A stretch of 64,000 nucleotides of DNA from Escherichia coli. Lineage in GTDB: Bacteria > Pseudomonadota > Gammaproteobacteria > Enterobacterales > Enterobacteriaceae. Below the pieces are notes generated by a model that was given only the letters and a program-made list of their open reading frames with translations, was not told the DNA's origin and searched no databases. The first letter of the stretch is position 1. Each line of letters begins with the position of its first letter. This document shows positions 17,280 through 62,819 of this stretch, one piece after another. The stretch lies in the NCBI RefSeq assembly GCF_050920415.1, contig NZ_CP169309.1. One strand, written 5' to 3'. The position numbers and the translations under genes are program-made.

Positions 17280-17292
17280 TCAATGTCTATGA

Positions 17293-17315: not shown

Positions 17316-17318
17316 TAC

Positions 17319-17349: not shown

Positions 17350-17474
17350 CCTGCATAAGATATCGAACAGGCAGGACGCCCACGAAGTAGCCGTCCGGGG
17401 CATACGAAGACCGGAATGGTTCGTAAATAAAAAAGCGCCCAAGTGGACGCTTCACTTTTGAACTGGATTTATAA

Positions 17475-42364: not shown

Positions 42365-42545
42365 GGTTTCTCTTTCCACTAGACAGATACACTGGTTGTC
42401 GGCCTGGTGGTGGAAAACTTTATGCTGTGGAAAAGCGTCGGCACTGCTTTTGTTGCAGCAAACTTGCGTTTTTTGTGAGGGTCACACTCTATAGCGGCAG
42501 TTTATGGTACAAAGTATCAATCTTCTTCGAACCAGTGATACTCCT

Positions 42546-43409: not shown

Positions 43410-43418
43410 CATTGTCGG

Positions 43419-44888: not shown

Positions 44889-44990
44889 AATTCACATCCT
44901 GCCAGTAGAGAGAGAATAATGTAAGAGTTCCCGGAGTGCTGAATGTATTCAGCACTCAATTGCGGTCTGTTTTTTTAATTCTTAAATTTA

Positions 44991-45386: not shown

Positions 45387-45389
45387 TCC

Positions 45390-46841: not shown

Positions 46842-47032
46842 TCCATTTCTGCAATGGTGACAAGTTAACCATTTACAAGGATGAAAAACAGTGGAAAACT
46901 ACGCAAAACCCAGATGATTTTATGATACTTTTATTCATAAACTATAAGATAAATAAACTAAATATTTATATTTCATTTAGTTACAAATGATACTCACATC
47001 CGATACGGTGAAAAACTTAAAAGGTAAATGTT

Positions 47033-48253
47033 ATGAAATACCACTCAGAACCTCTGGTTCCCCATAAATCGGCCCTGATGCAAATGCCCGCAAATCTCCT
47101 TGCCGAAGATGTCTGTTTACCTGCCGCGATCATTAAAAAGCAGGCCCTGGAGAACAACATTACGTGGATGCAGCGTTATGCTGACGCGCGCGGCGTTTCG
47201 CTGGCACCGCACGGTAAAACCACCATGACGCCGTGGATTTTTCAGGCGCAGCAGGCGGCTGGTGCCTGGGCAATAGGTGTCGGTAGCGCATGGCAGGCTG
47301 GTGCGGCAATGGCGAGCGGTATTCAGCGAGTGCTGATGGTTAACCAGCTGGTCGGCAAGGCGAATATGCAGTTGATTGCCCGGTTGCAACAACATTACCC
47401 GACGGTCGATTTTATCTGCTGTATCGACAGCATTGAGAACGCCCGCGCTTTGTCTGCCTTTTTTGCCAGTCAGCAACAGACACTGAACGTGATGATTGAG
47501 CTGGGTGTTCCCGGCGGACGCTGTGGTTGCCGCTCAACGGATGCCGCACTGGCACTGGCTAAACAGGCGGCCCAATTACCAGGGCTACGTCTGCGCGGGC
47601 TTGAGTTATATGAAGGTGTTTTACACGGTGACGATCCACAACCGCAGGTAGAAGCTCTGCTGCGGGATGCCGCACAACTGGCCTGTGATATGGCAAGTCT
47701 GGTTGATGGCGAGTTTATTCTCACCGGAGCAGGCACGGTCTGGTATGACGTGGTGTGCAATATCTGGCTGGCGGCAGAAAAGCCTGATAACTGCCGCATT
47801 GTTATTCGCCCTGGCTGCTACATCACTCACGACACCGGGATCTACGACGCGGCACAACAACAGTTGCTTGCCCGCGATCCTGTGGCCTGCGATCTTGCAG
47901 GCGATCTCACATCTGCGCTGGAACTGGTCGCCATGGTGCAATCGGTGCCGGAAGCTGATCGTGCGGTGGTAAATTTTGGTAAGCGTGATTGCGCCTTCGA
48001 CGCCGGACTGCCGCAACCAGTCGCCCACTACCGCAACGGCAAATCACTGGCATTTGATCCACAGGCGATTCGCAGTACAGGTATTATGGATCAGCACTGC
48101 ATGTTGCAACTGTCAGCTAATAGCGACGTGCAAGTGGGGGATATTCTGGTGTTTGGCACATCGCATCCGTGCCTGACCTTCGACAAATGGAAAACGTTGT
48201 TATTGGCTGATGACGACTACAACGTACTGGCAGAGCTGGATACGCTGTTTTGA
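47033..48253 (+). CDS. PLP-dependent enzyme with alanine-racemase-like N-terminal domain (D-serine dehydratase-like / D-threonine aldolase-like)
   Basis: 406 aa; PLP-lysine context (APHGKTT) and fold-type III pattern. Confidence 0.65.
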   Translation: MKYHSEPLVPHKSALMQMPANLLAEDVCLPAAIIKKQALENNITWMQRYADARGVSLAPHGKTTMTPWIFQAQQAAGAWAIGVGSAWQAGAAMASGIQRVLMVNQLVGKANMQLIARLQQHYPTVDFICCIDSIENARALSAFFASQQQTLNVMIELGVPGGRCGCRSTDAALALAKQAAQLPGLRLRGLELYEGVLHGDDPQPQVEALLRDAAQLACDMASLVDGEFILTGAGTVWYDVVCNIWLAAEKPDNCRIVIRPGCYITHDTGIYDAAQQQLLARDPVACDLAGDLTSALELVAMVQSVPEADRAVVNFGKRDCAFDAGLPQPVAHYRNGKSLAFDPQAIRSTGIMDQHCMLQLSANSDVQVGDILVFGTSHPCLTFDKWKTLLLADDDYNVLAELDTLF

Positions 48254-48311
48254 TAGCGCAGATGGCGGGTTCCTTCCCGCCATTAATTGTATGTATATCC
48301 TTAAGTATCTA

Positions 48312-49322
48312 TCAGCTACTTATGGATCGAATATCATCATAGATTGACTGGCTGATCTCTACCCCCTGTTGCTCACTGCGCAATCGTGCCTGGTAGCGAC
48401 GTTCTCCCGGCAGGCGCGCGCCCTGAGCCTGCATCTGACTAAACAGCGTTTCCGCCCTTGCCAGATGCCTCCCTGCATCCTCACCAAGAAAACGCTGCGG
48501 ATCGAGTGCCAGGATCAACTCTCCACCATACGGCAAACCACCTGCACCGTTATCCCACGCAAGAGACTCAGCACTGGTCATATCGCCAATCAGTGGTCCC
48601 GCAATCAGCTCCACCATCGCTGCCAGTGCCGAACCTTTATGACCGCCGAAGGTTAACATTGCTCCGTCCAACACAGCTTGTGGATCGGTGGTGGCATTGC
48701 CATGGCTGTCGATCCCCCAACCTTCAGGAAGTGATTTCCCGGCTCGCTGATGTAACTGAATCTCCCCGCGTGCCGCCGCACTGGTCGCCATATCAAAAAT
48801 AAATGGCGGCAGCTTGTCGCGCGGCCAACCAAACGCGATTGGGTTAGTACCAAAAAGAGGTTTGCCCCCCCCTTTCGGCGCAACCCAGGCATGGCTTGGC
48901 GTGGTCGCCAGCGCCACCAGTCCGGCTTCAGTCAGCGGTTCAACATCCGCAAATAAGGCGGAGTAGTGAACACAATGATTAATTGCCAGTGCTGCAATCC
49001 CGCACTGACGCGTTTTCTCGATCAGTAACGGTAGTGCCTGCTGATAAGCCAACAGCGAATAGCCACCTTTGGCATCGGCCTTAACGATTGCCGGAGCCTG
49101 AGATTCCACTGTCGGCAGAGCATCGGCAGAGACTTTCCCTTTTCGCAGCGTGTCAACAATCCCCAGCAGTCGCCATAAACCGTGCGAGGCACAACCGTCG
49201 CGCTCCCCGGCGGTAACGTTTTTCGCGATCACCACTGCATGTTGCTCACTAAATCCGTTACTAATGAGCGCATGATAGGCTAGTGCGTAAGCCTCTGATA
49301 ACGAGAGGATTACTCTATCCAT
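48312..49322 (-). CDS. Ldh2-family (malate/L-lactate dehydrogenase 2-type) oxidoreductase; candidate pyrroline/piperideine-2-carboxylate reductase
   Basis: 336 aa with Ldh2-family pattern; function inferred from family and neighbours. Confidence 0.6.
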   Translation of the reverse strand: MDRVILSLSEAYALAYHALISNGFSEQHAVVIAKNVTAGERDGCASHGLWRLLGIVDTLRKGKVSADALPTVESQAPAIVKADAKGGYSLLAYQQALPLLIEKTRQCGIAALAINHCVHYSALFADVEPLTEAGLVALATTPSHAWVAPKGGGKPLFGTNPIAFGWPRDKLPPFIFDMATSAAARGEIQLHQRAGKSLPEGWGIDSHGNATTDPQAVLDGAMLTFGGHKGSALAAMVELIAGPLIGDMTSAESLAWDNGAGGLPYGGELILALDPQRFLGEDAGRHLARAETLFSQMQAQGARLPGERRYQARLRSEQQGVEISQSIYDDIRSISS

Positions 49323-49333
49323 TTTCTACTCCT

Positions 49334-50935
49334 TTATTCTTCTTCATCCCCGTTAAAGTTCGCCCGAGGAAGACAGGTGTATGCGCCCCAGTAATAAATT
49401 CCCAACGACATCAGCGCGACGACGATAGTATCCCACGGGTGCCCTATAATGCCGCTACCGCCAAAGCTACCCAGCCAGGAAAACAGCATAATCAGGGCAT
49501 AGAAGGCAATAAGCCACAATGAAGATTTAATCTGCTGCGCCAGGCTGACATGCTGAACAGGCACTTTCGACTTGCAACTCACGTAAACCACAAACATTAC
49601 GATTTGTAGCCCCAGCAGCCAGGAAAGCGTCCCCCAACCAGACCAAAAAACAATCAGTGCGGAAATCATAAAAGAGAGTGGGCCAAGCACCGCAAAACCA
49701 CGAACGCGGAACGGGCGCGGCATATCAGGTGCATTACGGCGCAGTCCTGCAGCTGTAACCGGCGCGATGGCGTAGCTCAGTACCAGAGCCGCAGAAACCA
49801 CGCTAATCAATTGCTCCCACGACGGGAACGGTAGCGTCCAGAAGATAGATAAACCAAACGTCAGCCACAGTGCCGGACGTGGAATACCTGACTCCTTATC
49901 GATATGAGTAAAGGTTTTAAAGAATGTCCCCGCCTTCGCCCAGCCATAGATCACACGCGGTGTCGCATTCATGTAAATATTGCCAGTGCCGCTGGGAGAC
50001 ACAATAGCATCACATACCACCATAAATGCCAGCCAGCCCATCCCGAGAGTAATGGCGATATCGCGATATGGCAGCGAATAGTTCTTACTGATCTCCGCCC
50101 AACCACCACTTAGCGATTCAGTTGGAATACTGCCCAAAAAGGCGACCTGCAACAGAACGTAGATGATGGTCGAGAGAATTACCGAGAGGATCAGCGCAAA
50201 TGGGATGGTACGTTGCGGATTTTGCGCCTCGCTGGCTACGGAGATAATCGGTGTCAGTCCAAGGTAAGCGAAGATAATCCCACCCGCGCTAATTGCCGCT
50301 TCCACTCCTGACATACCAAATGGAGCCATACCCTGTATATGCAGATTCTCCGGTTTGAAGAAGGCAAATAACGTTATTACCACCAGCAACGGCACCAGAA
50401 ACTTCAGCACGCTAATAAAATTGTTCGAGCGAGCGAAAGTTTTAACACTGTAGTAGTTCAGGGCAAAAAAGAAGCACAACAGTAAGAACTGCACCACCCA
50501 GCCTAACAGCGTCGGGTCACTACTCCCCGTCTGCGTCAGCGCAGGAAACCAGGCGGCGGCATATTGCCGTGCGGCTACAATCTCAATGGAGATCAGGCTG
50601 GAGAAGGCAATCAGGGTAATAAAACCCAGCAGATAGCCCATCAATTCGCCGTGCGAAAATACCGGGTAACGAATAATACCGCCCGCGCGGGGAAGCGCCG
50701 CCCCCAGTTCGCAGTAAATAATCCCCAGTAGCAGCACCGCAAAACCGCCAATAACCCAGGAAGCAATCCCTGCTGGGCCAGCGATCGATGCGACATGGCT
50801 GGCAGCAAACAGCCAGCCAGAACCGAAAATCGCCCCCAGACCAATAAAGGTCAAGTCGGTGAGCGTTAACTGCTTTTTAAACTTCCCCGACTCAACAACG
50901 ACGGTTTGCGTGCTTTGGGTAGAAGGAATTGTCAT
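49334..50935 (-). CDS. APC-family amino-acid permease
   Basis: From MTIPSTQSTQTVVVESG... with GAAGGG RBS; about 12 TM. Confidence 0.75.
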   Translation of the reverse strand: MTIPSTQSTQTVVVESGKFKKQLTLTDLTFIGLGAIFGSGWLFAASHVASIAGPAGIASWVIGGFAVLLLGIIYCELGAALPRAGGIIRYPVFSHGELMGYLLGFITLIAFSSLISIEIVAARQYAAAWFPALTQTGSSDPTLLGWVVQFLLLCFFFALNYYSVKTFARSNNFISVLKFLVPLLVVITLFAFFKPENLHIQGMAPFGMSGVEAAISAGGIIFAYLGLTPIISVASEAQNPQRTIPFALILSVILSTIIYVLLQVAFLGSIPTESLSGGWAEISKNYSLPYRDIAITLGMGWLAFMVVCDAIVSPSGTGNIYMNATPRVIYGWAKAGTFFKTFTHIDKESGIPRPALWLTFGLSIFWTLPFPSWEQLISVVSAALVLSYAIAPVTAAGLRRNAPDMPRPFRVRGFAVLGPLSFMISALIVFWSGWGTLSWLLGLQIVMFVVYVSCKSKVPVQHVSLAQQIKSSLWLIAFYALIMLFSWLGSFGGSGIIGHPWDTIVVALMSLGIYYWGAYTCLPRANFNGDEEE

Positions 50936-50946
50936 AGTGATGCCCT

Positions 50947-52557
50947 TCAATGAGTCAACAAGGAGGAAATGGCTTCCCGGGTCCACTGGCCGTTAACCAA
51001 GCGCAGCAGGTTTAATGGATTACTGTCCTGCAGCGCAGGCGGTAATAGTGCAGCGGGTGCATTTTGCAGGCATACCGGGCGCAGAAAACGAGTAATGGCC
51101 AGCGTGCCTACGGACGTGCCGCGCGCGTCGGTGGTTGCCGGGAACGGACCACCGTGTACCATGGCATCGCAAACCTCGACGCCGGTGGGATAGCCATTGA
51201 ACAATACGCGTCCGGCTTTATCAGCCAACAATGGCAATAAACGACCAGCCAGTTGCCGGTCATCCTCATCCGCCTGAAGTGTGGCAGTAAGTTGCCCTTG
51301 CAGAGCGTTAATTACCTGCAACAACTCCGCTTCATCAGCGGCTTCAACCACAATCGCGAGCGGCCCGAACACTTCCTCCTGCAACAGAGGATCTTTTTCA
51401 AGTATGTTTGCCGCCTGAGCCTGATAGAGACGAGTTTCTGCTCGTCCGGCTTGATGATTATCGTCCCCCGCCAAACACCGAATAGTCGGATGTTCTGCCA
51501 GTTTCTCCACGCTGTGGCGATAGTGCTCAAGCGTGGAGGCGTTTAGCATGAGTTGCGGTGTGGCGGCATTCACTTTCTCAACCAGTTGCTGTAAAAAGTC
51601 CGCGTTTTTCTCCCCTTTCAGCAACACAATCAGGCCTGGTTTAGTGCAGAACTGTCCACATCCCAACGTGAACGACGCGACTAAATCGCGGGCCAGCGTA
51701 TCGGCACGTACTGATAGCGCCTGCGGCAGAATGAAAAAGGGATTGAGAGCCGACATTTCGGCAAAAACCGGTATCGGCTGTGGACGCTGTTGGGCCAAAC
51801 GAAAGAGCGCCATGCCACCACGTAATGAGCCGGTAAAACCCACCGCCTGAATTGCGGGATGTTTCACCAGTTCAGCACCGATATCAGTACCGAAAATCAT
51901 ATTGAATACGCCTGCGGGCATGGCGCATTTAGTCACGGCACGAGCGATCGCTGATGCGATAATTTCTGCCGTTGCCATATGCCCAGGATGCGCTTTCACA
52001 ACTACCGGGCATCCTGCAGCCAGTGCCGCTGCTGTATCACCACCGGCGATAGAAAAAGCGAGTGGAAAGTTGCTGGCACCAAATACCGCCACCGGCCCGA
52101 GAGCCGTTTTATACTGGCGCAAATCCGGTCGAGGCAGAGGCTGACGCTCCGGCAACGCAGTATCAATTCTTACCTCAAACAGATCGCCCCGACGTAATAA
52201 CCCGGCAAACATGCGCATCTGCCCGCTGGTTCTTGCCCGCTCTCCCTGTAAACGCGCCAGGGGTAACGCTGTCTCCTGATGTGCCGTAGCGAACAGTTCG
52301 TCGCCTGCTGCATCAAGTTCATCGGCGATGGTTTCTAAAAAATCGGCACGTTGCCCGGCATTGGTCAGTGAATAGCACACAAAAGCCTGCTGCGCCGCAA
52401 TAGCCGCCTGCTCGGCCTCCTCCACGGAGGCCGGGTAAAAACGTTGCCCGGTAGGTTCGCCATCCTGCGCTCGCAGGCTGACCAGCGACGGTTCACCGCT
52501 GGCAACACGTTGCCCGGCGATGAACTGTTGCCCGGTGAAAGGGAAAGTTTCAGTCAT
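50947..52557 (-). CDS. NAD(P)-dependent aldehyde dehydrogenase (candidate alpha-ketoglutarate-semialdehyde dehydrogenase)
   Basis: 536 aa ALDH superfamily with catalytic Cys context (FTLGCGQFCTKPG). Confidence 0.75.
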   Translation of the reverse strand: MTETFPFTGQQFIAGQRVASGEPSLVSLRAQDGEPTGQRFYPASVEEAEQAAIAAQQAFVCYSLTNAGQRADFLETIADELDAAGDELFATAHQETALPLARLQGERARTSGQMRMFAGLLRRGDLFEVRIDTALPERQPLPRPDLRQYKTALGPVAVFGASNFPLAFSIAGGDTAAALAAGCPVVVKAHPGHMATAEIIASAIARAVTKCAMPAGVFNMIFGTDIGAELVKHPAIQAVGFTGSLRGGMALFRLAQQRPQPIPVFAEMSALNPFFILPQALSVRADTLARDLVASFTLGCGQFCTKPGLIVLLKGEKNADFLQQLVEKVNAATPQLMLNASTLEHYRHSVEKLAEHPTIRCLAGDDNHQAGRAETRLYQAQAANILEKDPLLQEEVFGPLAIVVEAADEAELLQVINALQGQLTATLQADEDDRQLAGRLLPLLADKAGRVLFNGYPTGVEVCDAMVHGGPFPATTDARGTSVGTLAITRFLRPVCLQNAPAALLPPALQDSNPLNLLRLVNGQWTREAISSLLTH

Positions 52558-52572
52558 AATCTCTCCCCCACC

Positions 52573-53493
52573 TCAAAGGCCCACGTCCGGCAGCGCAGGG
52601 CGAGTCGCCAGCGATTTCTCAACGATCGCCACAACCTGGGCACGCGTTTCGCCTTCCAGCGCCAGACGCGGCGGGCGAGTAACCTCACTGCCACGCCCCA
52701 ACAGGGCTTCACACAGCTTGATACACTGCACCAGGTCAGGGCGCGCATCGAGATGTAGCAGTGGCATAAACCAGCGATAGAGCGCCATAGCCTCGGCAAA
52801 ACGCTGTTGTTTTGCCAAACGGAACAACGTCTCACCTTCGCGTGGGAAGGCGTTTGACATCCCGGAAATCCAGCCTTCAGCGCCCACCGCAATGCTCTCA
52901 ACCACGACATCGTCCAGCCCGGCAAACAGCACAAAGCGATCGCCTACCGCATTGCGAAGATCGATAAAGCGCCGGGTATCACCAGAGGAATCTTTAAAGC
53001 AGACGATATTTTCGCAATCAGCTAGTGTTTCCAGGATATCAGGGGTGACATCGTTTTTATAAATCGGAGGGTTGTTATAGACCATGATCGGCAGGTCGGT
53101 CGCCATTGCCACACTGCGGAAGTGCGCTGCAGTTTCATGAGGCTTAGATGAGTAAACCAAAGCAGGCATCACCATAACGCCATCAACACCGACCTTCTCG
53201 GCCTCTTTTGCCATCGTCCGGGCAAAGGCAGTGGTGAACTCAGCAACCCCGGCAATCACCGGAATTTTTCCGCCAGCAGCATCTTTCGCTACTTCGATGA
53301 TTTGCAGTTTTTCCTGAGTGGTAAGTGACGTGTTTTCTCCAACGCTGCCGCACACTACCAGGCCAGAAACCCCATCTTTAACCAAGTTTTTCATCACCGC
53401 ATGTGTGGCATCCAAATCAAGTGAGTAATCACTACGGAACTGAGTGCTAACCGCCGGAAAAACGCCACTCCAGTTAATCGCTTTATTGCTCAT
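52573..53493 (-). CDS. DapA/NAL-family lyase (candidate pyrroline-4-hydroxy-2-carboxylate deaminase)
   Basis: From MSNKAINWSGVFPAVSTQF... with AGGAA RBS; class I aldolase (DHDPS-like) pattern. Confidence 0.7.
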   Translation of the reverse strand: MSNKAINWSGVFPAVSTQFRSDYSLDLDATHAVMKNLVKDGVSGLVVCGSVGENTSLTTQEKLQIIEVAKDAAGGKIPVIAGVAEFTTAFARTMAKEAEKVGVDGVMVMPALVYSSKPHETAAHFRSVAMATDLPIMVYNNPPIYKNDVTPDILETLADCENIVCFKDSSGDTRRFIDLRNAVGDRFVLFAGLDDVVVESIAVGAEGWISGMSNAFPREGETLFRLAKQQRFAEAMALYRWFMPLLHLDARPDLVQCIKLCEALLGRGSEVTRPPRLALEGETRAQVVAIVEKSLATRPALPDVGL

Positions 53494-53644
53494 CTTTGGT
53501 TTCCTTATTGTCAATCTGTTGCGTCAATGTGAATTAAAAGTGAATCTTCATTAACAGATTGACCTCTCCTTGCGCTGGCGGCTTGTCGATTTTCTTTCCC
53601 CAGGATGACGAAATTAGCACAATGCCCAGTTGTGATTTGTCGTG

Positions 53645-54472
53645 TTACCCCATCAACGTCATCCGAAAATCACGCGGAGTTGAGCCTGTCATCGCCTTAA
53701 ATTGACGGCTGAACGCACTATGGTCGGTATAACCGCACTGCAAAGCGATATCGGTAATCGGCGTAGTTCCGGCAAGTAACTCGGTGGCCTTTTCCAGTCG
53801 AACTTTGTGGATCATCTGGCGAGGCGTCAGGTGAAAAATCCGCTTACAGTAGCGTTCAATTTGCGCCACAGACATTCCGCTCATTTCAGTCAACTCTTCC
53901 ATAGAGATCGCACGGTAGTAGTGATTGCGAATGTGCTCATCGATGATCGCCAGGCGTTGCCAGGCTGGATGACGCGCATGTGCTTCCTGGAGATCATGTG
54001 AGATCCCCGCCATTCCGATCACACGCCCCTGCATATCGCGCAGTGCCAGTTTCTGCGTCAGACACCAGCCGCGTTCGCGACCGTTATAGAGATGCATCTC
54101 TAGTTGATCACGTAACGCAACCCCTTCGCGTAGCACACGCAGATCCTGTTCGGTATATCCTCGTCCCAATGCAGAAGGGAAAACATCTGCCGATGTCTTC
54201 CCCAGTAGCGATGTCACATTTTTAAACCCGCAGCGTCGCGCCAACGTCATATTGACTAACAGATAACGGGCCTGCATATCCTTAATAAAAAACACCACAT
54301 TAGGAATGGCGTTGAGAAGTGGCGCAATCAGCGCCAGTGCATTTAACAACGCCTGAATATTTTGTGGACGCTGCCGCGCCAGCCCCTCGCAAATCTGACT
54401 AAGTTCATCAACGGCCAGCGCAGTTTCTTCACAAGGGGAAAACTCAAAAGTCTGATGACATATGCTGGACAT
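53645..54472 (-). CDS. AraC-family transcriptional regulator
   Basis: C-terminal AraC HTH (TDIALQCGYTDHSAFSRQFK); divergent from the epimerase operon. Confidence 0.8.
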   Translation of the reverse strand: MSSICHQTFEFSPCEETALAVDELSQICEGLARQRPQNIQALLNALALIAPLLNAIPNVVFFIKDMQARYLLVNMTLARRCGFKNVTSLLGKTSADVFPSALGRGYTEQDLRVLREGVALRDQLEMHLYNGRERGWCLTQKLALRDMQGRVIGMAGISHDLQEAHARHPAWQRLAIIDEHIRNHYYRAISMEELTEMSGMSVAQIERYCKRIFHLTPRQMIHKVRLEKATELLAGTTPITDIALQCGYTDHSAFSRQFKAMTGSTPRDFRMTLMG

Positions 54473-54783
54473 AGTTGTTCCTCATAGCGATTGAGGATGA
54501 ATGTTTATTAACCTTTGATTAACATGACAAGTACTGAAAGTGCATTTTGCGATCCTTCCGTGTATTTCCACTTTCCGTTGCTCTCACTACTGACGAACGC
54601 TTGTTCCTGGTCTAACACATCACTAACAAAATGATTAATATTAAAAAAACATGACCACTCCTGGTGTCGCGAAATAATTCACTGTGCTGATTTCGTCATT
54701 TCCCTTGCAGAAACCCTTCAAGCGATAAAGTTGCAATTACGCCAGCATTTAGAAACATTTTGTTAACCACATGGAGCCAGAGC

Positions 54784-55731
54784 ATGCATGTTCCTCACCA
54801 AATCACTGAACTCAGGGCTATCGACTCCCATACCGGAGGCGAGCCGACCCGGTTGATTATTGATGGCTTTCCCGATCTCGGTAGCGGCAGCATGGCCGAA
54901 CGGCGCGAACGTTTTACCCGGGAATTTGACTGTTGGCGCAAAGCCATAATTCTTGAGCCACGCGGCAACGACGTGCTGGTCGGCGCGCTACTGTGTGAGC
55001 CGCTTTCCCCTCATGCCACGGCGGGTGTCATCTTTTTCAATAATGCCGGATACCTGAATATGTGTGGGCACGGCACTATCGGGCTTGTTGCCTCACTGGC
55101 CTGGTTGGGTCGTATTAAACCGGGCGTTCATCGCATTGAAACCCCTGTCGGAGATGTAAACGCCACATTGCATGATGATGGCAGTGTGTCAGTTGAAAAT
55201 GTTCCGGCCTGGCGCTGGCAAAAACAGGTAAGTGTGGAAACAGCGGTGGGTACAGTTACAGGAGATATCGCCTGGGGTGGTAACTGGTTTTTTCTTATTA
55301 ATGATCATCCATTTGATATTGTGCCGGAACAAATCCCGCAGTTAACTGAATACGCCTGGGCGGTACGGGAAGGGCTCGATAATGCGGGGATCGTCGGTGA
55401 AAACGGTGGCATTATCGATCATATCGAACTTTTTGCCGATGACGATCAGGCGGATAGCCGTAGCTTCGTCCTTTGCCCAGGTAAAGCGTGGGATCGTTCT
55501 CCCTGTGGCACAGGCACCAGCGCCAAGCTGGCCTGTCTGGCAGAAGACGGAAAACTCGCCCCCGGCGATAGCTGGCGCCAGGCCAGTATTATTGGTAGCC
55601 AGTTTACGGCTCACTATACCCGCCATGGCGAGAAGATTATCCCCACCATTCGTGGAGAAGCCTGGGTATGCGGCGACAATCGCCTGCTCCTTAATCCGGA
55701 CGATCCCTTCTGCTGGGGGATTAGCCTGTGA
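54784..55731 (+). CDS. Proline-racemase-family enzyme, Cys/Cys type (candidate 4-hydroxyproline 2-epimerase)
   Basis: Catalytic motifs MCGHGTIG and [12 protein letters not shown] (both Cys). Confidence 0.75.
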
Positions 55732-56837
55732 ACAGCACGGAGGTCATTGTCATCGGCGCAGGCATCATCGGGGCCTCCTGCGCATGGCAACTGGCAAAAC
55801 GTGGTGTGAGAGTCACGCTAATTGACAACGGCCGAGCCGGAGCGACAGCTGCAGGAATGGGGCATCTGGTCTGTATGGATGATGATCCCGCAGAACTGAC
55901 GCTCTCTGCCTGGTCGCTGGAACTGTGGCGCACGTTGACGCCTCAGTTACCGGAAAGCTGTGCCTGGTGCGGCTGTGGCACATTGTGGCTGGCGGAAACA
56001 CCAGAAGAACTGGAAATTGCCCGAGAGAAGCAGCGACGTCTGGCATCGCATGAGGTCAACAGCGAAATGCAAAGCGCTGCACAATTGGCTGAGCGGGAAG
56101 TTATGCTACGCCCGGGGTTATCCGGCGGGTTATGGGTGCCGGGCGATGGCATCGTCTACGCCCCAAACGTTGCCCGTTGGTTTATTGCCAATGCAGGCGA
56201 TAAGCTGACACATCTGGTTGATCCGGCCATTCGTCTGGAAGAACCTACAGTGACATTACAGAGCGGTCGCCAATTACGCGCCGATGCGATCGTCGTCGCC
56301 TGTGGTCTGGGGGCCAATACGTTACTGGGGGAGCCATGGCTGCGCGCGAAGAAAGGCCAACTTGCGATTACCGATCGCTATGGTCCACTAGTCAATCACC
56401 AACTGGTTGAACTTGGCTACGGCGCCAGTGCTCACGGCAGCGGCACGTCAGTGGCCTTTAATGTGCAGCCTCGTCCCACCGGACAACTGCTGATTGGCTC
56501 TTCACGTCAGTTCGATAACGAGGATCGCGAACTGGACCTTCCACTCCTGGCCGCGATGCTGTCCAGAGCGCAACACTTTCTGCCGTCTCTGGCAACGCTC
56601 AATATTATTCGTTGCTGGAGCGGTTTTCGCGCCGCCTCGCAGGATGGTAATCCCCTTCTCGGCCCGCATCCTTCCCGTGCTGGCGTCTGGCTGGCTCTTG
56701 GTCATGAAGGGCTTGGAGTGACTACTGCCCCCGCCAGCGCGTCGCTGTTAGTCGCACAGTTGCTGGGTGAACGCAGCCTCGTATCTCCTGCCCCCTGGCT
56801 ACCCGCAAGACTTATCTCCCTGGAGGCCAGCGCATGA
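55728..56837 (+). CDS. FAD-dependent oxidoreductase (DAO family; candidate D-hydroxyproline dehydrogenase subunit)
   Basis: N-terminal FAD motif [21 protein letters not shown]. Confidence 0.75.
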
Positions 56838-57097
56838 GTGGCACCATTAGAATTTTTATTGCCGGACAGCCCTGGTTTGTCCCGACGGGTATTAGCGTAG
56901 CGGCGGCACTGGCCTTAACTGATAACCCCATTACGCGCCTTTCGGTGAGCGGGCAACCACGTACGCCCTTCTGCGGCATGGGCGTTTGCCAGGAGTGTCG
57001 GGTGAGCGTTAATGGTCGTCGGGTACCCGGTTGTCAGACCCTTTGCCAGCCAGACATGCAGATTGAAAGGAGCGGATATGCAGACCTTACAGTGTGA
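56834..57097 (+). CDS. Small [2Fe-2S]-binding protein (dehydrogenase subunit)
   Basis: 87 aa with Cys motifs CGMGVCQECRV...C; overlaps both neighbours. Confidence 0.65.
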   Translation: MSGTIRIFIAGQPWFVPTGISVAAALALTDNPITRLSVSGQPRTPFCGMGVCQECRVSVNGRRVPGCQTLCQPDMQIERSGYADLTV

Positions 57098-58343
57098 CAT
57101 TTTAATTCTCGGTGCAGGCCCGGCGGGGCTATCAGCGGCTCTGGCCGCAGCAAAGTGCGATAAGCAGGTCATCATCCTTGATGATAATCCGCTTCCTGGC
57201 GGTCAAATCTGGCGCGATGGTCCACAAAGTCAGCTTCCTCCACTGGCCCGCCATTACCGTGATGCCGTTGCCAACGAATCGCGGATTCGTGTGCTCAACG
57301 GAGCGAGGTTAATCGCCCGCCGCAGCGAAAATTGTGTACTGTTCGAAACTGCAGAAGACTACGGCACAGTAAGCTGGAATAAGCTGATTCTCTGCTGCGG
57401 CGCACGTGAACTTGCATTACCGTTTCCAGGCTGGACGCTGCCCGGTGTCAGTGGCGCGGGTGGGCTACAGGCACAAATGAAACAGGGGCTGCACATGGCA
57501 AATCAAAAAGTGGTTATTGCCGGAAGTGGGCCACTATTACTGGCCGTTGCTGACACCGTTCGCCGTGCCGGAGGCGAAGTGGTGGCGATTGTGGAACAAG
57601 CCCCACGCGCAGCGCTATTGCGCTTTGGCTTCGGACTATGGCGTTGGCCGGGTAAGCTGCGCCAACTGGCGACACTATTTCCTCGTCGTTATCTCAGTGC
57701 AAGCCAGGTTATCGCTGCACACGGCGACGCCACATTGCGTGCTGTCACCCTCCGACACAATGGTAGGGAAATCACACTGCCATGCGACAAATTAGCTATT
57801 GGCTATGGTCTAGTGCCTAATCTTGAACCTGGGTTGTTCTTCAGTTGTGCCATCAGCAATGATGCCGTGCAGGTGGATGAACTGCAGCGAACCTCGGTTA
57901 AAAACATCTATGCAGCCGGTGAATGTACTGGATTTGGTGGCAGTGAACTGGCGCTGATAGAAGGTGAAATAGCCGGACTTTGTGCGGCCGATCGCGCCCA
58001 TGAAACAAAGTTTCTGCAACAAAAACGCACCAGGTGGCAGCGCTTCGCCCTCGCGCTTCATAAAACCTTTGCCCTGCCCGAAAGTCTCAAGCGCGTTGCG
58101 ACACCAGAAACGCTGCTTTGCCGCTGCGAAGACATTCGCTGTGGCGATGTAGAGCAAGCACAAAGCTGGCTGCAGGCCAAATTAACGACCCGCTGCGGCA
58201 TGGGAGCCTGTCAGGGGAGAACCTGCGCCGCTACCGCACGATGGTTGTACGGCTGGCCATTACTGGAACCGCGAGCCCCCCTTTCCCCCTCTCGCAGCGA
58301 AACGTTAATTGCCCTGGCGCAACAACCACCTTCGCCACATTAA
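57078..58343 (+). CDS. FAD/NAD(P)-binding oxidoreductase (HcnB/opine-oxidase-A-like subunit)
   Basis: From MQTLQCDILILGAGPAGLSAALAAA...; dinucleotide-binding motifs and C-terminal Cys cluster. Confidence 0.7.
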   Translation: MQTLQCDILILGAGPAGLSAALAAAKCDKQVIILDDNPLPGGQIWRDGPQSQLPPLARHYRDAVANESRIRVLNGARLIARRSENCVLFETAEDYGTVSWNKLILCCGARELALPFPGWTLPGVSGAGGLQAQMKQGLHMANQKVVIAGSGPLLLAVADTVRRAGGEVVAIVEQAPRAALLRFGFGLWRWPGKLRQLATLFPRRYLSASQVIAAHGDATLRAVTLRHNGREITLPCDKLAIGYGLVPNLEPGLFFSCAISNDAVQVDELQRTSVKNIYAAGECTGFGGSELALIEGEIAGLCAADRAHETKFLQQKRTRWQRFALALHKTFALPESLKRVATPETLLCRCEDIRCGDVEQAQSWLQAKLTTRCGMGACQGRTCAATARWLYGWPLLEPRAPLSPSRSETLIALAQQPPSPH

Positions 58344-58719
58344 ATCCCTGATAATAATTTGGCGTTAAGGGCTTATCTGGTCTGGTAAATCTTACAAATT
58401 CAATATATTGCAGAATCTATCCAGGCCAGATAAGCGTAGCGCAGCTGGCAATTATTGAGCCGTAAACGAGGAATCTACCCAGAAAAAATTTCGTGATCTC
58501 AATCACATATTAGCTCGATGAATAATTCTTGCCCAACCGCTCACCGCCATTCCTGACCGCTTACGTCCCAAATATAACCACTCAGTTATTTACCTTACTT
58601 TACGCGCGCGTAACTCTGGCAACATCACTGCAGGATAGCGGTCAATTTACCTCCTCAAACGCAACGCAAACCTAGAACGGCTTCGGCCAACTATTAATCA
58701 ATACATGCCAGGTTTTACT

Positions 58720-60870
58720 ATGGATACTAAAAAGATATTCAAGCACATACCCTGGGTGATTCTTGGAATCATCGGTGCATTCTGCCTCGCGGTAGTTGCA
58801 TTACGTCGGGGGGAGCACGTCAGCGCCCTGTGGATCGTGGTCGCCTCTGTGTCAGTGTATCTGGTGGCTTATCGCTACTACAGTCTGTACATCGCCCAGA
58901 AAGTGATGAAACTCGACCCCACGCGCGCGACGCCTGCGGTTATTAACAACGACGGTCTGAACTATGTTCCGACCAACCGTTACGTGTTGTTTGGTCACCA
59001 CTTCGCTGCTATCGCCGGTGCGGGTCCGCTGGTTGGTCCGGTTCTCGCCGCGCAGATGGGTTACCTGCCTGGCACACTGTGGCTGCTGGCGGGGGTAGTG
59101 CTGGCCGGTGCGGTACAGGACTTTATGGTGCTGTTTATCTCTTCTCGCCGTAACGGCGCATCTCTCGGTGAGATGATCAAAGAAGAGATGGGGCCAGTAC
59201 CGGGGACTATCGCGCTGTTTGGCTGTTTCTTAATCATGATCATCATCCTCGCCGTTCTGGCGCTGATTGTGGTTAAAGCCCTGGCCGAAAGTCCGTGGGG
59301 TGTCTTCACCGTTTGCTCAACCGTACCAATTGCGCTGTTTATGGGTATCTACATGCGCTTTATCCGTCCTGGGCGTGTAGGTGAAGTCTCTGTTATTGGT
59401 ATCGTGCTGCTGGTTGCCTCTATCTACTTCGGTGGCGTAATTGCTCACGATCCGTACTGGGGTCCGGCACTGACCTTTAAAGACACCACCATTACCTTCG
59501 CACTGATTGGCTATGCGTTTGTTTCCGCACTGCTGCCGGTGTGGCTGATCCTCGCACCGCGCGACTATCTGGCAACCTTCCTGAAAATCGGCGTTATCGT
59601 CGGCCTGGCGCTGGGTATCGTGGTGCTGAACCCGGAACTGAAAATGCCTGCGATGACCCAGTACATTGACGGTACTGGCCCGCTGTGGAAAGGCGCTCTG
59701 TTCCCGTTCCTGTTCATCACCATCGCCTGTGGTGCGGTATCTGGCTTCCACGCGCTGATCTCTTCCGGTACGACGCCGAAACTGCTGGCTAACGAAACCG
59801 ACGCGCGTTTCATTGGCTACGGCGCAATGCTGATGGAGTCCTTCGTGGCGATTATGGCGCTGGTTGCTGCGTCCATCATCGAACCGGGTCTTTACTTCGC
59901 GATGAATACCCCGCCTGCGGGCCTTGGCATCACCATGCCTAACCTGCATGAAATGGGTGGCGAGAACGCGCCGATCATCATGGCACAACTGAAAGACGTT
60001 ACCGCACACGCGGCAGCGACTGTCAGCTCCTGGGGCTTCGTGATTTCGCCAGAGCAGATCCTGCAAACCGCGAAAGACATTGGTGAGCCTTCTGTCCTGA
60101 ACCGTGCAGGTGGTGCGCCGACGCTGGCGGTAGGTATCGCTCACGTGTTCCACAAAGTGCTGCCGATGGCTGACATGGGCTTCTGGTATCACTTCGGCAT
60201 TCTGTTCGAAGCCCTGTTCATCCTGACCGCGCTGGATGCGGGTACCCGTTCTGGCCGCTTTATGCTGCAAGACCTGCTGGGTAACTTCATCCCGTTCCTG
60301 AAAAAAACCGACTCTCTGGTTGCCGGTATCATCGGTACTGCGGGCTGTGTGGGTCTGTGGGGCTACCTGCTGTATCAGGGCGTGGTCGATCCGCTGGGCG
60401 GCGTTAAGAGCCTGTGGCCGCTGTTCGGTATCTCCAACCAGATGCTGGCAGCCGTAGCGCTGGTACTGGGCACCGTTGTGCTGATTAAGATGAAGCGCAC
60501 CCAATACATCTGGGTGACTGTTGTTCCGGCTGTATGGCTGCTTATCTGCACCACCTGGGCGCTGGGCCTGAAACTGTTCAGCACCAACCCGCAGATGGAA
60601 GGCTTCTTCTACATGGCAAGCCAGTACAAAGAGAAGATTGCTAACGGTACTGACCTGACGGCACAGCAGATTGCCAACATGAACCACATCGTTGTGAACA
60701 ACTACACCAACGCAGGCCTGAGTATTCTGTTCCTGATTGTGGTGTACAGCATCATCTTCTACGGTTTCAAAACCTGGCTGAAGGTGCGTAACAGCGACAA
60801 ACGTACTGACAAAGAAACACCGTACGTTCCAATCCCGGAAGGCGGCGTGAAGATTTCTTCGCACCACTAA
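58720..60870 (+). CDS. btsT: Pyruvate/H+ symporter BtsT (CstA family)
   Basis: 716 aa from [24 protein letters not shown]...; CstA-family multi-TM; K-12 yjiY. Confidence 0.9.
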
Positions 60871-62204: not shown

Positions 62205-62507
62205 TTATTTTTTATTCTGATCGCGCAGCATCGCTTCACGTAAAATTGCGTTCAGGCGAGTTTGATAGCCTTTACCTGGTCGCTTCAACCATTCCATCAC
62301 ATCAGCATCAATACGCACCGAAGCCTGAGTTTTCAATGGCCGATAAAACTTACCGCGTTCTGCGTTAGACCATTGCTCATCGCTGGAAGGTGGGATATCA
62401 CTGTAATCAATATCTTCGTCGGATTTATTCGCCAGCGCCTTCAGTTCGGCCTCATGCTGCACATCGAGTGAAGAGGAGGTCCCTCGTTTATGTTTAACCA
62501 TGCTCAT
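62205..62507 (-). CDS. BrnA-like antitoxin (type II TA)
   Basis: 100 aa; C-terminal ...VMEWLKRPGKGYQTRLNAILREAML pattern of BrnA. Confidence 0.6.
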   Translation of the reverse strand: MSMVKHKRGTSSSLDVQHEAELKALANKSDEDIDYSDIPPSSDEQWSNAERGKFYRPLKTQASVRIDADVMEWLKRPGKGYQTRLNAILREAMLRDQNKK

Positions 62508-62632
62508 AGCGGCTCCGTTCGTTGTGGCTCATCAAACACTAACACCGCATCTTCAAAGCGGATGCCATGTTTCACCCGATTACTTTTGGCCTTGTTTGCA
62601 TCCCATTCAAACTCCATTGGCATAGTTGCCAT
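62504..62632 (-). pseudogene. Truncated BrnT-like toxin gene (N-terminal 42 codons only)
   Basis: MATMPMEFEWDANKAKSNRVKHGIRFEDAVLVFDEPQRTEPL then stop overlapping the brnA ATG (ATGA); full-length BrnT is about twice this length. Confidence 0.45.
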
Positions 62633-62819
62633 CCCCAATTGTATATACAAAAATGTATCTACAATCATTCTGCAATTATAGCGTTGATGTTGGAAATAGC
62701 ATCACGTTTTGGATAATCAACCATGAAATTGACAATGAGTGAGTTGGACTTGATTCATCCAATAGAATTTCTCGCCTGACATGGCACACTAAACACCTCG
62801 CTGTCGTTAAGGGATTACC

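What the first reader, a model, noticed from the sequence alone, without database searches (positions are those of the whole stretch)
50947..58343. Gene set consistent with a complete hydroxyproline catabolic pathway (epimerase, three-component dehydrogenase, DapA-like deaminase, semialdehyde dehydrogenase)
A Cys/Cys proline-racemase-family enzyme (motifs MCGHGTIG and SPCGTGTS) is followed by an FAD oxidoreductase, an 87-aa 2Fe-2S protein and an FAD/NAD oxidoreductase with overlapping reading frames. On the other strand are a DapA-family lyase and an aldehyde dehydrogenase, with an AraC regulator in between. This matches the Pseudomonas/Sinorhizobium route from trans-4-hydroxy-L-proline to alpha-ketoglutarate. 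Substrate assignment is inferred from family membership only.
Basis: partly seen in the sequence, partly recalled or inferred. Interest (0 to 1): 0.45.

Follow-up and report, generated by a model that had tools for sequence, protein, structure and literature searches.

The report
Hydroxyproline breakdown genes in E. coli
A rare 10-kb block of nine genes in this E. coli chromosome is a complete copy of the known Pseudomonas aeruginosa-type pathway that turns collagen-derived hydroxyproline into alpha-ketoglutarate; the pathway is ordinary biochemistry, but it is unusual in E. coli.

Summary
The window is an E. coli chromosome (100% match to strain MFDS1022581). The genes at 50947-58343 are intact. 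Each has an ortholog in the experimentally studied P. aeruginosa Lhp cluster:
- epimerase, 68% identity (above the curated cut-off of the 4-hydroxyproline epimerase model; Cys94/Cys241 pair)
- beta, gamma and alpha subunits of D-hydroxyproline dehydrogenase, 55%, 57% and 50% (only 24%, 35% and 31% to Ti-plasmid nopaline oxidase)
- DHDPS-family deaminase, 75%
- aldehyde dehydrogenase, 59%
- PAS-AraC regulator, 61%

The real unit is therefore nine genes, window 48235-58492.

A conserved 41-nt bipartite motif sits upstream of both divergent operons. It recurs at the same promoters in Raoultella, Serratia, Burkholderia and, slightly diverged, P. aeruginosa. It is probably the regulator's operator.

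The module is present in only 34 of 5426 complete E. coli genomes, including ETEC O6:H16. It is always chromosomal, lies between tsr and btsT, and has no mobile-element signature.

Substrate and growth phenotype remain inferred. Verdict: a new member of a known kind, of low to moderate interest.

The parts
48235..58492 (.). Extent of the nine-gene hydroxyproline module. This is the segment present in this strain and absent from E. coli strains that carry only the neighbouring five-gene module.
   Evidence: Alignment of the window with strain CT30 (L008): homology stops at window 48234 and resumes at 58493, and 59 bp of CT30 stand in its place. The whole segment is found at >=99.6% identity in 34 of 5426 genomes.
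48261..48284 (+). GC-rich hairpin between the convergent ends of the deaminase-like gene and the Ldh_2 gene. It is probably a bidirectional terminator that closes the leftward operon.
   Evidence: Terminator-like site with 9 pairs, 6 of them G-C. Consensus match only.
48312..49322 (-). Ldh_2-family oxidoreductase. Predicted delta1-pyrroline-2-carboxylate/delta1-piperideine-2-carboxylate reductase (DpkA / P. aeruginosa PA1252 'lhpD' type).
   Evidence: Pfam Ldh_2 E=1.5e-95. 61.6% identity over 331 aa to P. aeruginosa lhpD. Best solved relative is 1WTJ, a delta1-piperideine-2-carboxylate reductase, E=1e-73.
49334..50935 (-). APC-family amino-acid permease. Predicted hydroxyproline importer.
   Evidence: AA_permease_2 E=3e-43. 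It is conserved inside the cluster in Raoultella (90%), Serratia (82%) and Burkholderia (72.5%). A COG0531 (APC) permease is also linked to hyp genes in Erwinia. Substrate is inferred.
50947..52557 (-). NADP-type aldehyde dehydrogenase. Predicted alpha-ketoglutarate semialdehyde dehydrogenase (P. aeruginosa PA1253 type).
   Evidence: 58.5% identity over 523 aa to the P. aeruginosa ortholog. Catalytic Glu267 (FAEMS) and Cys304 (GQFC) are present. Best solved relatives are 3V4C and 1EYY.
52573..53493 (-). DHDPS/NAL-family protein. [quoted passage not shown]
   Evidence: 75% identity over 304 aa to the P. aeruginosa ortholog and 83% to Burkholderia. It scores below the curated cut-offs of the DapA, KdgD and NanA models. 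The Schiff-base lysine context VCFKDSSG (K167) matches the P. aeruginosa protein.
53581..53621 (-). Conserved bipartite motif TGTGCTAATTTCGTCAT-N10-GAAAATCGACAAGC upstream of the DHDPS-led operon. Candidate operator of the PAS-AraC regulator.
   Evidence: The 17-nt core occurs only twice in 64 kb (0.05 expected). The pair was also found independently as inverted repeat I10.
53645..54472 (-). PAS-AraC transcriptional regulator, ortholog of P. aeruginosa LhpR (PA1261).
   Evidence: PAS_4 E=2e-19 plus HTH_18 E=3e-23. 61-64% identity to the P. aeruginosa AraC-family gene of the Lhp cluster. LhpR-type regulators respond to L-hydroxyproline.
54683..54723 (+). Second copy of the bipartite motif (TGTGCTGATTTCGTCAT-N10-GAAACCCTTCAAGC), upstream of the epimerase-led operon.
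   Evidence: The same element with the same spacing lies at the equivalent promoters of Raoultella, Serratia and Burkholderia. A copy with 2 mismatches lies upstream of P. aeruginosa lhpA and lhpD.
54784..55731 (+). 4-hydroxyproline 2-epimerase (Cys94/Cys241).
   Evidence: NF010577 scores 487.6 bits against a cut-off of 442. 68% identity to P. aeruginosa PA1268. E=1e-140 to 4J9W/4J9X.
55728..56837 (+). Beta (catalytic, DAO-family) subunit of heteromeric D-hydroxyproline dehydrogenase.
   Evidence: 55% identity to P. aeruginosa LhpB against 24% to NoxB. GAGIIG at residue 10 and R-x-W at 295 are present, as in LhpB.
56834..57097 (+). Gamma (2Fe-2S) subunit, 87 aa.
   Evidence: Fer2_4 E=6e-17. 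57% identity to the P. aeruginosa protein. Carries the C-x4-C-x2-C-x11-C motif at residue 47.
57078..58343 (+). Alpha (FAD/NAD-fold) subunit.
   Evidence: 50% identity to the P. aeruginosa protein against 31% to NoxA. GAGPAG at residue 12. C-x-C-x22-C-x4-C at residue 348, with the same spacing as in P. aeruginosa.

Best explanation
[quoted passage not shown] It is of the type characterised in Pseudomonas aeruginosa.

Inferred sequence of events:
1. The APC permease imports hydroxyproline.
2. The PAS-AraC regulator (LhpR ortholog) senses it. It activates both operons through a conserved 41-nt bipartite site upstream of each.
3. The Cys/Cys epimerase converts trans-4-hydroxy-L-proline to cis-4-hydroxy-D-proline.
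4. The translationally coupled beta-gamma-alpha flavo-iron-sulfur dehydrogenase oxidises this to delta1-pyrroline-4-hydroxy-2-carboxylate and passes electrons to a respiratory acceptor.
5. The DHDPS-family deaminase converts that product to alpha-ketoglutarate semialdehyde plus ammonia.
6. The NADP-type aldehyde dehydrogenase yields alpha-ketoglutarate.
7. The Ldh_2 reductase at the end of the leftward operon probably reduces delta1-pyrroline-2-carboxylate to L-proline. That intermediate would come from D-proline oxidised by the same dehydrogenase, or from 3-hydroxyproline.

Shown here: gene content, integrity, orthology, catalytic and cofactor motifs, conserved synteny, the shared promoter motif and the distribution. 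Inferred: substrates, induction, the electron acceptor and the growth phenotype in E. coli.
For: Orthology to the P. aeruginosa Lhp cluster for all eight protein types, at 50-75% identity over full length.

The epimerase passes the curated equivalog cut-off and fails those of proline racemase and 3-Hyp dehydratase. It has the Cys/Cys pair. Its local sequence matches the Hyp-liganded structure 4J9X at the His and Cys ligand sites that distinguish Hyp epimerases.

The dehydrogenase subunits carry the ADP-binding, R-x-W and two Fe-S motifs described for D-HypDH. They are far closer to LhpB and its partner subunits than to nopaline oxidase.

The gene order Ldh2-APC-ALDH-DHDPS-AraC | Epi-beta-gamma-alpha is identical in Raoultella ornithinolytica and Serratia marcescens. 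It is the same apart from gene order and the missing regulator in Burkholderia cenocepacia.

The shared promoter motif occurs exactly twice in 64 kb, once before each operon. It is conserved with fixed spacing at 10 promoters in 5 taxa, including those of P. aeruginosa lhpA and lhpD.

In P. putida the orthologous genes are the only ones with specific fitness defects on L-hydroxyproline, and the LhpR ortholog works as a Hyp-inducible activator when moved into E. coli.

Genes are tightly packed: overlaps of 4-20 nt and gaps of 11-15 nt.
Against: No experiment exists for this E. coli module, and none was found in the literature searched.

Substrate specificity of the beta subunit, the deaminase, the ALDH and the permease rests on 55-75% identity and on context. 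The comparison with HCN synthase subunits was not possible.

The natural electron acceptor of the dehydrogenase is unknown. The published assays read here used artificial acceptors.

The consensus sigma-70 scan found no more promoter-like sites than in shuffled sequence. This is expected for activator-dependent promoters but is not positive evidence.

I could not read the LhpR operator paper (Li and Lu 2016), so the motif's identity as the LhpR site is inferred.
Confidence: 0.85

Rival explanations
1. The module is real, but its main physiological substrate in enterobacteria is something other than trans-4-hydroxy-L-proline. Candidates are D-proline, cis-4-hydroxy-D-proline taken up directly, 3-hydroxyproline, or a hydroxyproline-containing peptide or betaine. 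The epimerase would then be a side entry.
For: The operon includes an Ldh_2 pyrroline-2-carboxylate reductase, which the 4-Hyp route does not need. Some proline-racemase-family enzymes that have both DAAO/DHDPS/ALDH and MLD2 neighbours are bifunctional. The permease substrate is unknown.
Against: The deaminase and the alpha-ketoglutarate semialdehyde dehydrogenase are needed only for the 4-hydroxy route. The epimerase leads the dehydrogenase operon and is translationally coupled to it. It passes the 4-Hyp epimerase cut-off and fails the 3-Hyp dehydratase ones. The P. aeruginosa and P. putida orthologs are tied to L-hydroxyproline growth.
Confidence: 0.07
2. The three-gene oxidoreductase is an opine oxidase/dehydrogenase or an HCN synthase, and the cluster serves opine or glycine metabolism.
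For: These enzymes share the same three-subunit flavo-iron-sulfur architecture and Pfam families.
Against: [quoted passage not shown] The genes are translationally coupled to a 4-Hyp epimerase in five taxa. No arginase, ornithine cyclodeaminase or opine transporter genes are nearby (compare). From general knowledge, the gene order hcnA(Fe-S)-hcnB-hcnC differs from the beta-gamma-alpha order seen here. HCN synthase sequences were not compared directly.
Confidence: 0.02
3. The genes are intact but cryptic in E. coli. They would be carried along with a recombined chromosomal segment and confer no usable phenotype, for instance because the dehydrogenase lacks a compatible electron acceptor or the promoters are silent in this host.
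For: The module is in only 0.6% of genomes. No phenotype has been reported. The promoter scan is uninformative.
Against: All nine genes are intact and >=99.6% identical across 34 genomes from humans, poultry, a goose, a frog and a kite. Both operator copies are conserved. The same layout is maintained in Raoultella, Klebsiella-group relatives and Serratia. A P. putida LhpR ortholog and its promoter function in E. coli.
Confidence: 0.1

Closest known systems
Pseudomonas aeruginosa PAO1 L-hydroxyproline (Lhp) cluster, PA1252-PA1268: HypE PA1268, heteromeric alpha4-beta4-gamma4 D-hydroxyproline dehydrogenase, Pyr4H2C deaminase PA1254, KGSA dehydrogenase PA1253, Pyr2C/Pip2C reductase PA1252, regulator LhpR PA1261
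   Same: The same eight protein types, at 50-75% identity. The same epimerase-beta-gamma-alpha operon with overlapping frames. The same PAS-AraC regulator type. A related promoter motif upstream of lhpA and lhpD. The same Fe-S and flavin motifs.
   Different: The E. coli module is compact: 10 kb in two divergent operons, against about 20 kb interspersed with unrelated genes. It uses an APC permease instead of the ABC transporter. It lacks the 3-hydroxyproline branch genes (the Cys/Thr dehydratase PA1255 and aconitase X PA1259) and the extra GntR regulator.
Enterobacterial and Burkholderia versions of the same cluster (Raoultella ornithinolytica, Klebsiella spp., Enterobacter, Citrobacter, Serratia marcescens, Burkholderia cenocepacia). 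To my knowledge these are uncharacterised.
   Same: The nine-gene order is identical in Raoultella (69-92% amino-acid identity) and Serratia (55-82%). Burkholderia has the same genes including the APC permease (72.5%), and the same operator motif.
   Different: The nearest non-Escherichia beta subunit is only 79% identical, so no recent donor is identified. Burkholderia lacks the regulator gene between the operons and orders the leftward operon DHDPS-APC-ALDH-Ldh2.
Sinorhizobium meliloti hyp cluster (HypRE epimerase, HypO, HypD, HypH, HypS, ABC transporter HypMNPQ, GntR repressor HypR)
   Same: The same four-step chemistry and the same DHDPS, ALDH and Ldh_2 (HypS) families.
   Different: It has a homomeric D-amino-acid-oxidase-type HypO rather than a three-subunit dehydrogenase. 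It uses a GntR repressor rather than a PAS-AraC activator, and an ABC transporter.
Flavin-containing opine dehydrogenase/oxidase (OdhABC, NoxBA/OoxBA) and HCN synthase (HcnABC)
   Same: The alpha-beta-gamma flavo-iron-sulfur architecture and shared cofactor motifs.
   Different: Low identity (24-35% to the Nox subunits) and a different genomic context. These are a different subfamily according to the published phylogeny.

Membership tests
4-hydroxyproline 2-epimerase (proline racemase superfamily) | Score above the curated cut-off of the equivalog model, and below the cut-offs of the sister functions | tested here: met
   NF010577 scores 487.6 bits against a cut-off of 442. Proline racemase NF010576 scores 195 against 556. 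trans-3-Hyp dehydratase NF045511 scores 187 against 540.
4-hydroxyproline 2-epimerase (proline racemase superfamily) | [quoted passage not shown] | tested here: met
   Cys94 in MCGHGTIG and Cys241 in SPCGTGTS. They align with the catalytic Cys88 and Cys236 of 4J9W/4J9X.
4-hydroxyproline 2-epimerase (proline racemase superfamily) | HypE-type ligand sites: His at 'site 4', Cys or Tyr at 'site 5', and no Phe at 'site 1' | tested here: met
   The segments [16 protein letters not shown] and [15 protein letters not shown] are conserved, almost residue for residue, with the Hyp-liganded P. protegens enzyme. The sites are as defined. Tested by sequence alignment only.
4-hydroxyproline 2-epimerase (proline racemase superfamily) | Epimerisation of trans-4-L-Hyp to cis-4-D-Hyp in vitro | not testable with these tools
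   An enzyme assay is needed.
Heteromeric (alpha4-beta4-gamma4) D-hydroxyproline dehydrogenase | Three tandem genes in the order beta (DAO family), gamma (2Fe-2S), alpha (pyridine-nucleotide-disulfide fold) | tested here: met
   55728-56837, 56834-57097 and 57078-58343, with overlapping frames. P. aeruginosa has the same order.
Heteromeric (alpha4-beta4-gamma4) D-hydroxyproline dehydrogenase | Closer to the characterised D-HypDH subunits than to the opine oxidase subunits | tested here: met
   55/57/50% identity to P. aeruginosa against 24/35/31% to the pTiC58 Nox subunits.
Heteromeric (alpha4-beta4-gamma4) D-hydroxyproline dehydrogenase | Cofactor motifs: GxGxxG in beta and alpha; R-x-W (FMN) in beta; C-x4-C-x2-C-x11/12-C in gamma; C-x-C...C-x4-C in alpha | tested here: met
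   All are present. The alpha spacing is x22, outside the x15-20 range quoted but identical to the P. aeruginosa alpha subunit.
Heteromeric (alpha4-beta4-gamma4) D-hydroxyproline dehydrogenase | Separation from the HCN synthase (HcnABC) subfamily | not tested
   No Hcn sequence was available in the accessible collections. The only evidence is indirect: context, and the published statement that homology between the subfamilies is not high.
Heteromeric (alpha4-beta4-gamma4) D-hydroxyproline dehydrogenase | Dodecameric assembly, FAD/FMN/Fe-S content, activity on cis-4-hydroxy-D-proline | not testable with these tools
   Purification and assay are needed.
[quoted passage not shown] | Full-length orthology to the characterised enzyme, and exclusion from the DapA, KdgD and NanA equivalogs | tested here: met
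   75% identity over 304 of 306 aa. dapA scores 175.6 against a cut-off of 206, KdgD 144 against 374, NanA 125 against 281. The lysine context VCFKDSSG, GSVGE and VYNNP match the P. aeruginosa protein.
Alpha-ketoglutarate semialdehyde dehydrogenase, PA1253-type NADP ALDH | Orthology to the cluster ALDH of P. aeruginosa, with catalytic Cys and Glu | tested here: met
   58.5% identity over 523 aa. Glu267 and Cys304 are present.
Alpha-ketoglutarate semialdehyde dehydrogenase, GucD type (NF042993) | Score above the curated cut-off | tested here: not met
   92.5 bits against a cut-off of 770. The protein belongs to a different ALDH lineage and is not filed here.
LhpR (PAS-AraC hydroxyproline-responsive activator) | N-terminal PAS domain plus C-terminal AraC HTH, with orthology to PA1261 | tested here: met
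   PAS_4 at residues 53-165 and HTH_18 at 195-270. 61-64% identity to the P. aeruginosa cluster regulator. The architecture is as described.
LhpR (PAS-AraC hydroxyproline-responsive activator) | Binding to an operator at the Lhp promoters, and induction by hydroxyproline | tested here: inconclusive
   A conserved bipartite motif lies at both promoters and at the orthologous promoters in five taxa.
Pyr2C/Pip2C reductase (DpkA / lhpD, Ldh_2 family) | Orthology to the characterised reductases rather than to malate, sulfolactate or ureidoglycolate dehydrogenases | tested here: met
   61.6% identity to P. aeruginosa lhpD. 1WTJ (DpkA) at E=1e-73, against E=2e-34 or weaker for other Ldh_2 enzymes. 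It scores below the cut-offs of the sulfolactate, AllD and YiaK models.

The most novel reading that the evidence does not exclude
A minority lineage of E. coli, including the human ETEC O6:H16 clone and poultry isolates, can respire free hydroxyproline released from dietary or host collagen.

It would do so with a chromosomal nine-gene module that is old in Enterobacteriaceae and has been lost from most E. coli. The in-operon Ldh_2 reductase would widen the module to D-proline and possibly 3-hydroxyproline salvage. The 41-nt bipartite site defined here would be the LhpR operator, conserved across beta- and gamma-proteobacteria.

This would give these strains a private nutrient niche in the gut.
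Probability: 0.45. Interest if true: 0.35.

Novelty: new member of a known kind. Interest (0 to 1): 0.22.

Why it matters
The biochemistry is already known from Pseudomonas, Azospirillum and Sinorhizobium, so nothing mechanistically new is claimed.

The modest value lies in three points.
1. It documents a complete, intact hydroxyproline pathway as a rare accessory trait of E. coli: 0.6% of complete genomes, including challenge-study ETEC strains. This is relevant to strain-specific metabolic models and to nutrient-niche ideas for gut colonisation.
2. RefSeq names only the epimerase specifically. The other eight genes carry generic names, and the orthology table here allows them to be named.
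3. The conserved bipartite promoter element gives a directly testable operator for LhpR-type regulators, which are already being developed as hydroxyproline-inducible expression tools in E. coli.

Tried and rejected
- **Opine oxidase.** I fetched the pTiC58 noxB, 2Fe-2S and noxA genes and compared them. Identity is 24-35%, so this reading is rejected.
- **HCN synthase.** I found no Hcn sequence in the collections I could read, so it was not compared directly.
- **Solved structures.** No close structures exist for the beta subunit (best hit is glycine oxidase, E=3e-24) or the alpha subunit (rubredoxin reductase, E=3e-11), so these give no functional information.
- **Primary papers.** Watanabe et al. 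2012 (PMC3463351) and Li and Lu 2016 are not held. Their content is cited only through later open papers.
- **Literature on the E. coli or enterobacterial cluster.** Searches found nothing specific.
- **Consensus promoter and terminator scan.** No enrichment over shuffled sequence.
- **Mobile-element signatures at the module borders.** There is no tRNA, no flanking direct repeats and no annotated integrase or transposase. I therefore rejected the idea of a classical integrative island. Recombination within the conserved 3' end of the neighbouring deaminase gene fits better.
- **Functional link to the adjacent five-gene D-amino-acid module.** I considered this and did not adopt it. That module occurs without the Hyp module in about 160 E. 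coli genomes, and the Hyp module occurs without it in Serratia.
- **Large scans.** The expensive genome contigs and representative-protein scans were not used, because named homologs already gave the taxonomic picture.

Full report
**Where the window comes from.** The region 50947-58343 is 100% identical to the chromosome of Escherichia coli strain MFDS1022581, and at least 99.6% identical to 33 other complete E. coli chromosomes. The RefSeq annotation of that strain places the finding between tsr (window 40700-42364) and btsT (58720-60870). Fourteen genes lie between those two core genes. Most E. coli lack them.

**Checking the observation.** The two quoted motifs are at window 55060-55083 (MCGHGTIG, Cys94) and 55498-55521 (SPCGTGTS, Cys241). 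The frames of the rightward operon overlap as claimed. The epimerase stop and the beta start share GTGA, the beta stop and the gamma start share ATGA, and gamma and alpha overlap by 20 nt. Three small corrections apply:
- The likely starts are 54784 for the epimerase and 57078 for the alpha subunit.
- The AraC-family regulator carries an N-terminal PAS domain.
- The leftward operon does not end at the aldehyde dehydrogenase. It continues, with 11-nt gaps, into an APC-family permease (49334-50935) and an Ldh_2-family oxidoreductase (48312-49322).

**What the proteins are.** I obtained a P. aeruginosa sequence carrying the Lhp cluster. In it RefSeq annotates the 4-hydroxyproline epimerase, lhpB ('D-hydroxyproline dehydrogenase subunit beta') and lhpD. 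I then compared all proteins by BLASTP.

| E. coli protein | Identity to P. aeruginosa counterpart |
|---|---|
| Epimerase | 68% |
| Beta subunit | 55% |
| 2Fe-2S gamma subunit | 57% |
| Alpha subunit | 50% |
| DHDPS-family protein | 75% |
| Aldehyde dehydrogenase | 58.5% |
| Ldh_2 protein | 62% (to lhpD) |
| PAS-AraC regulator | 61% |

Open papers from the Watanabe group summarise the characterised system. [quoted passage not shown] The P. aeruginosa dehydrogenase is an alpha4-beta4-gamma4 enzyme whose beta, gamma and alpha genes lie in tandem. It contains FAD, FMN and a [2Fe-2S] cluster.

**Epimerase.** It exceeds the curated cut-off of NCBIfam's 4-hydroxyproline epimerase equivalog (487.6 vs 442 bits). 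It fails the proline racemase (195 vs 556) and trans-3-hydroxyproline dehydratase (187 vs 540) models. Its best solved relatives are 4J9W/4J9X (E=1e-140) and 2AZP, which is PA1268 (E=1e-138). 4J9X is the P. protegens enzyme Q4KGU2, functionally assigned and crystallised with trans-4-hydroxy-L-proline, with the catalytic pair Cys88/Cys236. The E. coli protein keeps both cysteines. It also keeps the local sequences around the ligand sites said to distinguish Hyp epimerases from proline racemases: His in IDHIELF, Cys six residues before DRSPCG, and no Phe at site 1.

**Dehydrogenase.** The motifs described for this enzyme class are all present:
- GxGxxG at the N-termini of beta and alpha
- R-x-W at beta residue 295, as in LhpB
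- C-x4-C-x2-C-x11-C in gamma
- C-x-C-x22-C-x4-C in alpha, with exactly the P. aeruginosa spacing

Identities are only 24% (beta), 35% (gamma) and 31% (alpha). I could not obtain HCN synthase sequences, so that comparison remains indirect. It rests on context, on the translational coupling to an epimerase, and on the published statement that homology between the D-HypDH, opine dehydrogenase and HCN synthase subfamilies is not high.

**Remaining enzymes.**
- The DHDPS-family protein falls below the cut-offs of the DapA, KdgD and NanA models. It shares the lysine context (K167) with the P. aeruginosa deaminase ortholog.
- The aldehyde dehydrogenase has Glu267 and Cys304. It belongs to the approximately 530-residue NADP-ALDH lineage (3V4C, 1EYY), not to the GucD type of alpha-ketoglutarate semialdehyde dehydrogenase.
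- The best solved relative of the Ldh_2 protein is DpkA, a delta1-piperideine-2-carboxylate/pyrroline-2-carboxylate reductase (E=1e-73).

**Conservation of the unit.** The closest homologs of the beta subunit outside Escherichia are in Raoultella, Enterobacter, Citrobacter, Klebsiella and Pluralibacter (74-79%), and in Serratia (63-67%). In Raoultella ornithinolytica and Serratia marcescens the nine genes have exactly the same order and orientation as here. Amino-acid identities are 69-92% and 55-82% respectively. Burkholderia cenocepacia has the same genes, including the permease at 72.5%, in two divergent operons without the regulator between them. The nine genes are therefore a conserved unit.

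**Regulation (partly inferred).** I aligned the two intergenic regions across the three enterobacteria. This revealed one shared element upstream of each operon. The 17-nt core TGTGCYRATTTCGTCAT occurs exactly twice in the 64-kb window, at 53605-53621 (-) and 54683-54699 (+), against 0.05 expected by chance. The repeat finder recovered the pair independently (I10). Extended alignment of ten promoters from five taxa shows a fixed-spacing bipartite element, TGTGC-N3-TTTCGTCAT-N10-GAAA-N5-CAAGC. The ten include the regions upstream of P. aeruginosa lhpA and lhpD, each with two mismatches in the core. The neighbouring regulator is the ortholog of LhpR. A P. putida LhpR ortholog (PP_4602) activates a hydroxyproline-responsive promoter, even when transplanted into E. 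coli. The element is therefore most simply the regulator's operator. Binding was not shown, and I could not read the paper that characterised LhpR.

**Distribution and borders.** The full 10,258-bp segment 48235-58492 occurs in 34 of 5426 complete E. coli genomes. It is always single-copy, chromosomal and at least 99.6% identical. Hosts include humans (with ETEC O6:H16 strains such as TW10598 and B2C), poultry, a goose, a frog and a kite. The five genes to its left are an RpiR regulator, a sodium:solute symporter, RidA, an N-acyl-D-amino-acid deacylase and a D-serine-dehydratase-like deaminase. They occur in 195 genomes.

In strains with only those five genes, homology to the window stops at 48234 and resumes at 58493, with 59 bp in between. 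The left breakpoint lies inside the last 19 nt of the deaminase gene. There the two versions differ in sequence but encode the same residues. No tRNA, integrase, IS element or flanking direct repeat marks the borders. G+C is 53.8%, against 49.8% for the whole window. This pattern fits gain or loss by homologous recombination within a shared flank, not a classical integrative island. Raoultella has the same deaminase-Ldh_2 adjacency.

**Mechanism proposed.**
1. The permease imports hydroxyproline, and the PAS-AraC regulator switches on both operons.
2. The epimerase inverts C2.
3. The beta-gamma-alpha dehydrogenase oxidises cis-4-hydroxy-D-proline to the cyclic imine.
4. The DHDPS-family enzyme dehydrates and deaminates it to alpha-ketoglutarate semialdehyde.
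5. The aldehyde dehydrogenase gives alpha-ketoglutarate.
6. The Ldh_2 reductase is not needed for this route. By analogy with lhpD and DpkA, and with the malate/lactate-dehydrogenase-2 neighbours discussed, it probably returns pyrroline-2-carboxylate (from D-proline or 3-hydroxyproline) to L-proline.

Every step is assigned by orthology, motifs and context. None was tested in E. coli.

**Comparison and verdict.** This is a compact enterobacterial version of the P. aeruginosa-type Lhp system. It differs from that system in transporter type and in lacking the 3-hydroxyproline branch. It differs from the Sinorhizobium system in dehydrogenase architecture and regulator family.

The finding is a new member of a known kind. 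I found no paper describing this cluster in E. coli, and RefSeq names only the epimerase specifically. The chemistry, enzyme families and regulator type are all established. Interest is low to moderate. It lies mainly in the rarity of the trait within E. coli and in the testable operator.

Noticed in passing
window 42365-48234: A separate five-gene accessory module lies next to the hydroxyproline genes. It comprises a MurR/RpiR regulator, a sodium:solute symporter, RidA, an N-acyl-D-amino-acid deacylase-family amidohydrolase and a fold-type-III PLP 'amino acid deaminase' (Ala_racemase_N plus D-ser_dehydrat domains). It looks like an uptake, deacylation and deamination route for an N-acyl-D-amino acid. 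It is in 195 of 5426 E. coli genomes, mostly without the Hyp module. The deacylase and deaminase are also adjacent to the Hyp genes in Raoultella but not in Serratia.
   Followed up: partly
window 48215-48253 versus L008 11851-11889: The tsr-btsT locus has three states in E. coli: empty, five genes, or fourteen genes. The breakpoint between the last two lies in the final 19 nt of the deaminase gene. There the two alleles differ at the DNA level (GAGCTGGATACGCTGTTTTGA vs GAATTAGACACTCTCTTCTAA) but both encode ELDTLF-stop. This suggests recombination with a diverged copy rather than insertion.
   Followed up: partly
window 58343-58492: The 150 bp between the end of the alpha-subunit gene and the point where homology to Hyp-less strains resumes contains a REP-like imperfect inverted repeat (GCTTATCTGGTCTGG ... 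CCAGGCCAGATAAGC). I did not check it against E. coli REP/BIME families.
   Followed up: no
window 56963-56993 and 58185-58215: The gamma subunit and the C-terminus of the alpha subunit share a 31-nt stretch at 77% identity that encodes the same CGMGxCQ iron-sulfur motif (direct repeat D4). This hints that the two cluster-binding segments are related by duplication.
   Followed up: no
window 62205-63986 and beyond (L001 31259-41152): Downstream of yjiA lies the variable 'immigration control' region. It holds a BrnA antitoxin with a truncated BrnT toxin, an Mrr_cat-domain restriction endonuclease (388 aa), a type I restriction-modification system, symE and a GmrSD-type endonuclease.
   Followed up: no
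window 59317-60867 (-): A 516-aa open reading frame runs antisense inside btsT. It has no Pfam match and is not annotated in RefSeq, so it is almost certainly a spurious shadow ORF.
   Followed up: no
window 16001-18000 and 22001-24000: Two stretches of low G+C (40.7% and 37.8%, against 49.8% for the whole window) lie far upstream of the finding. I did not examine them.
   Followed up: no
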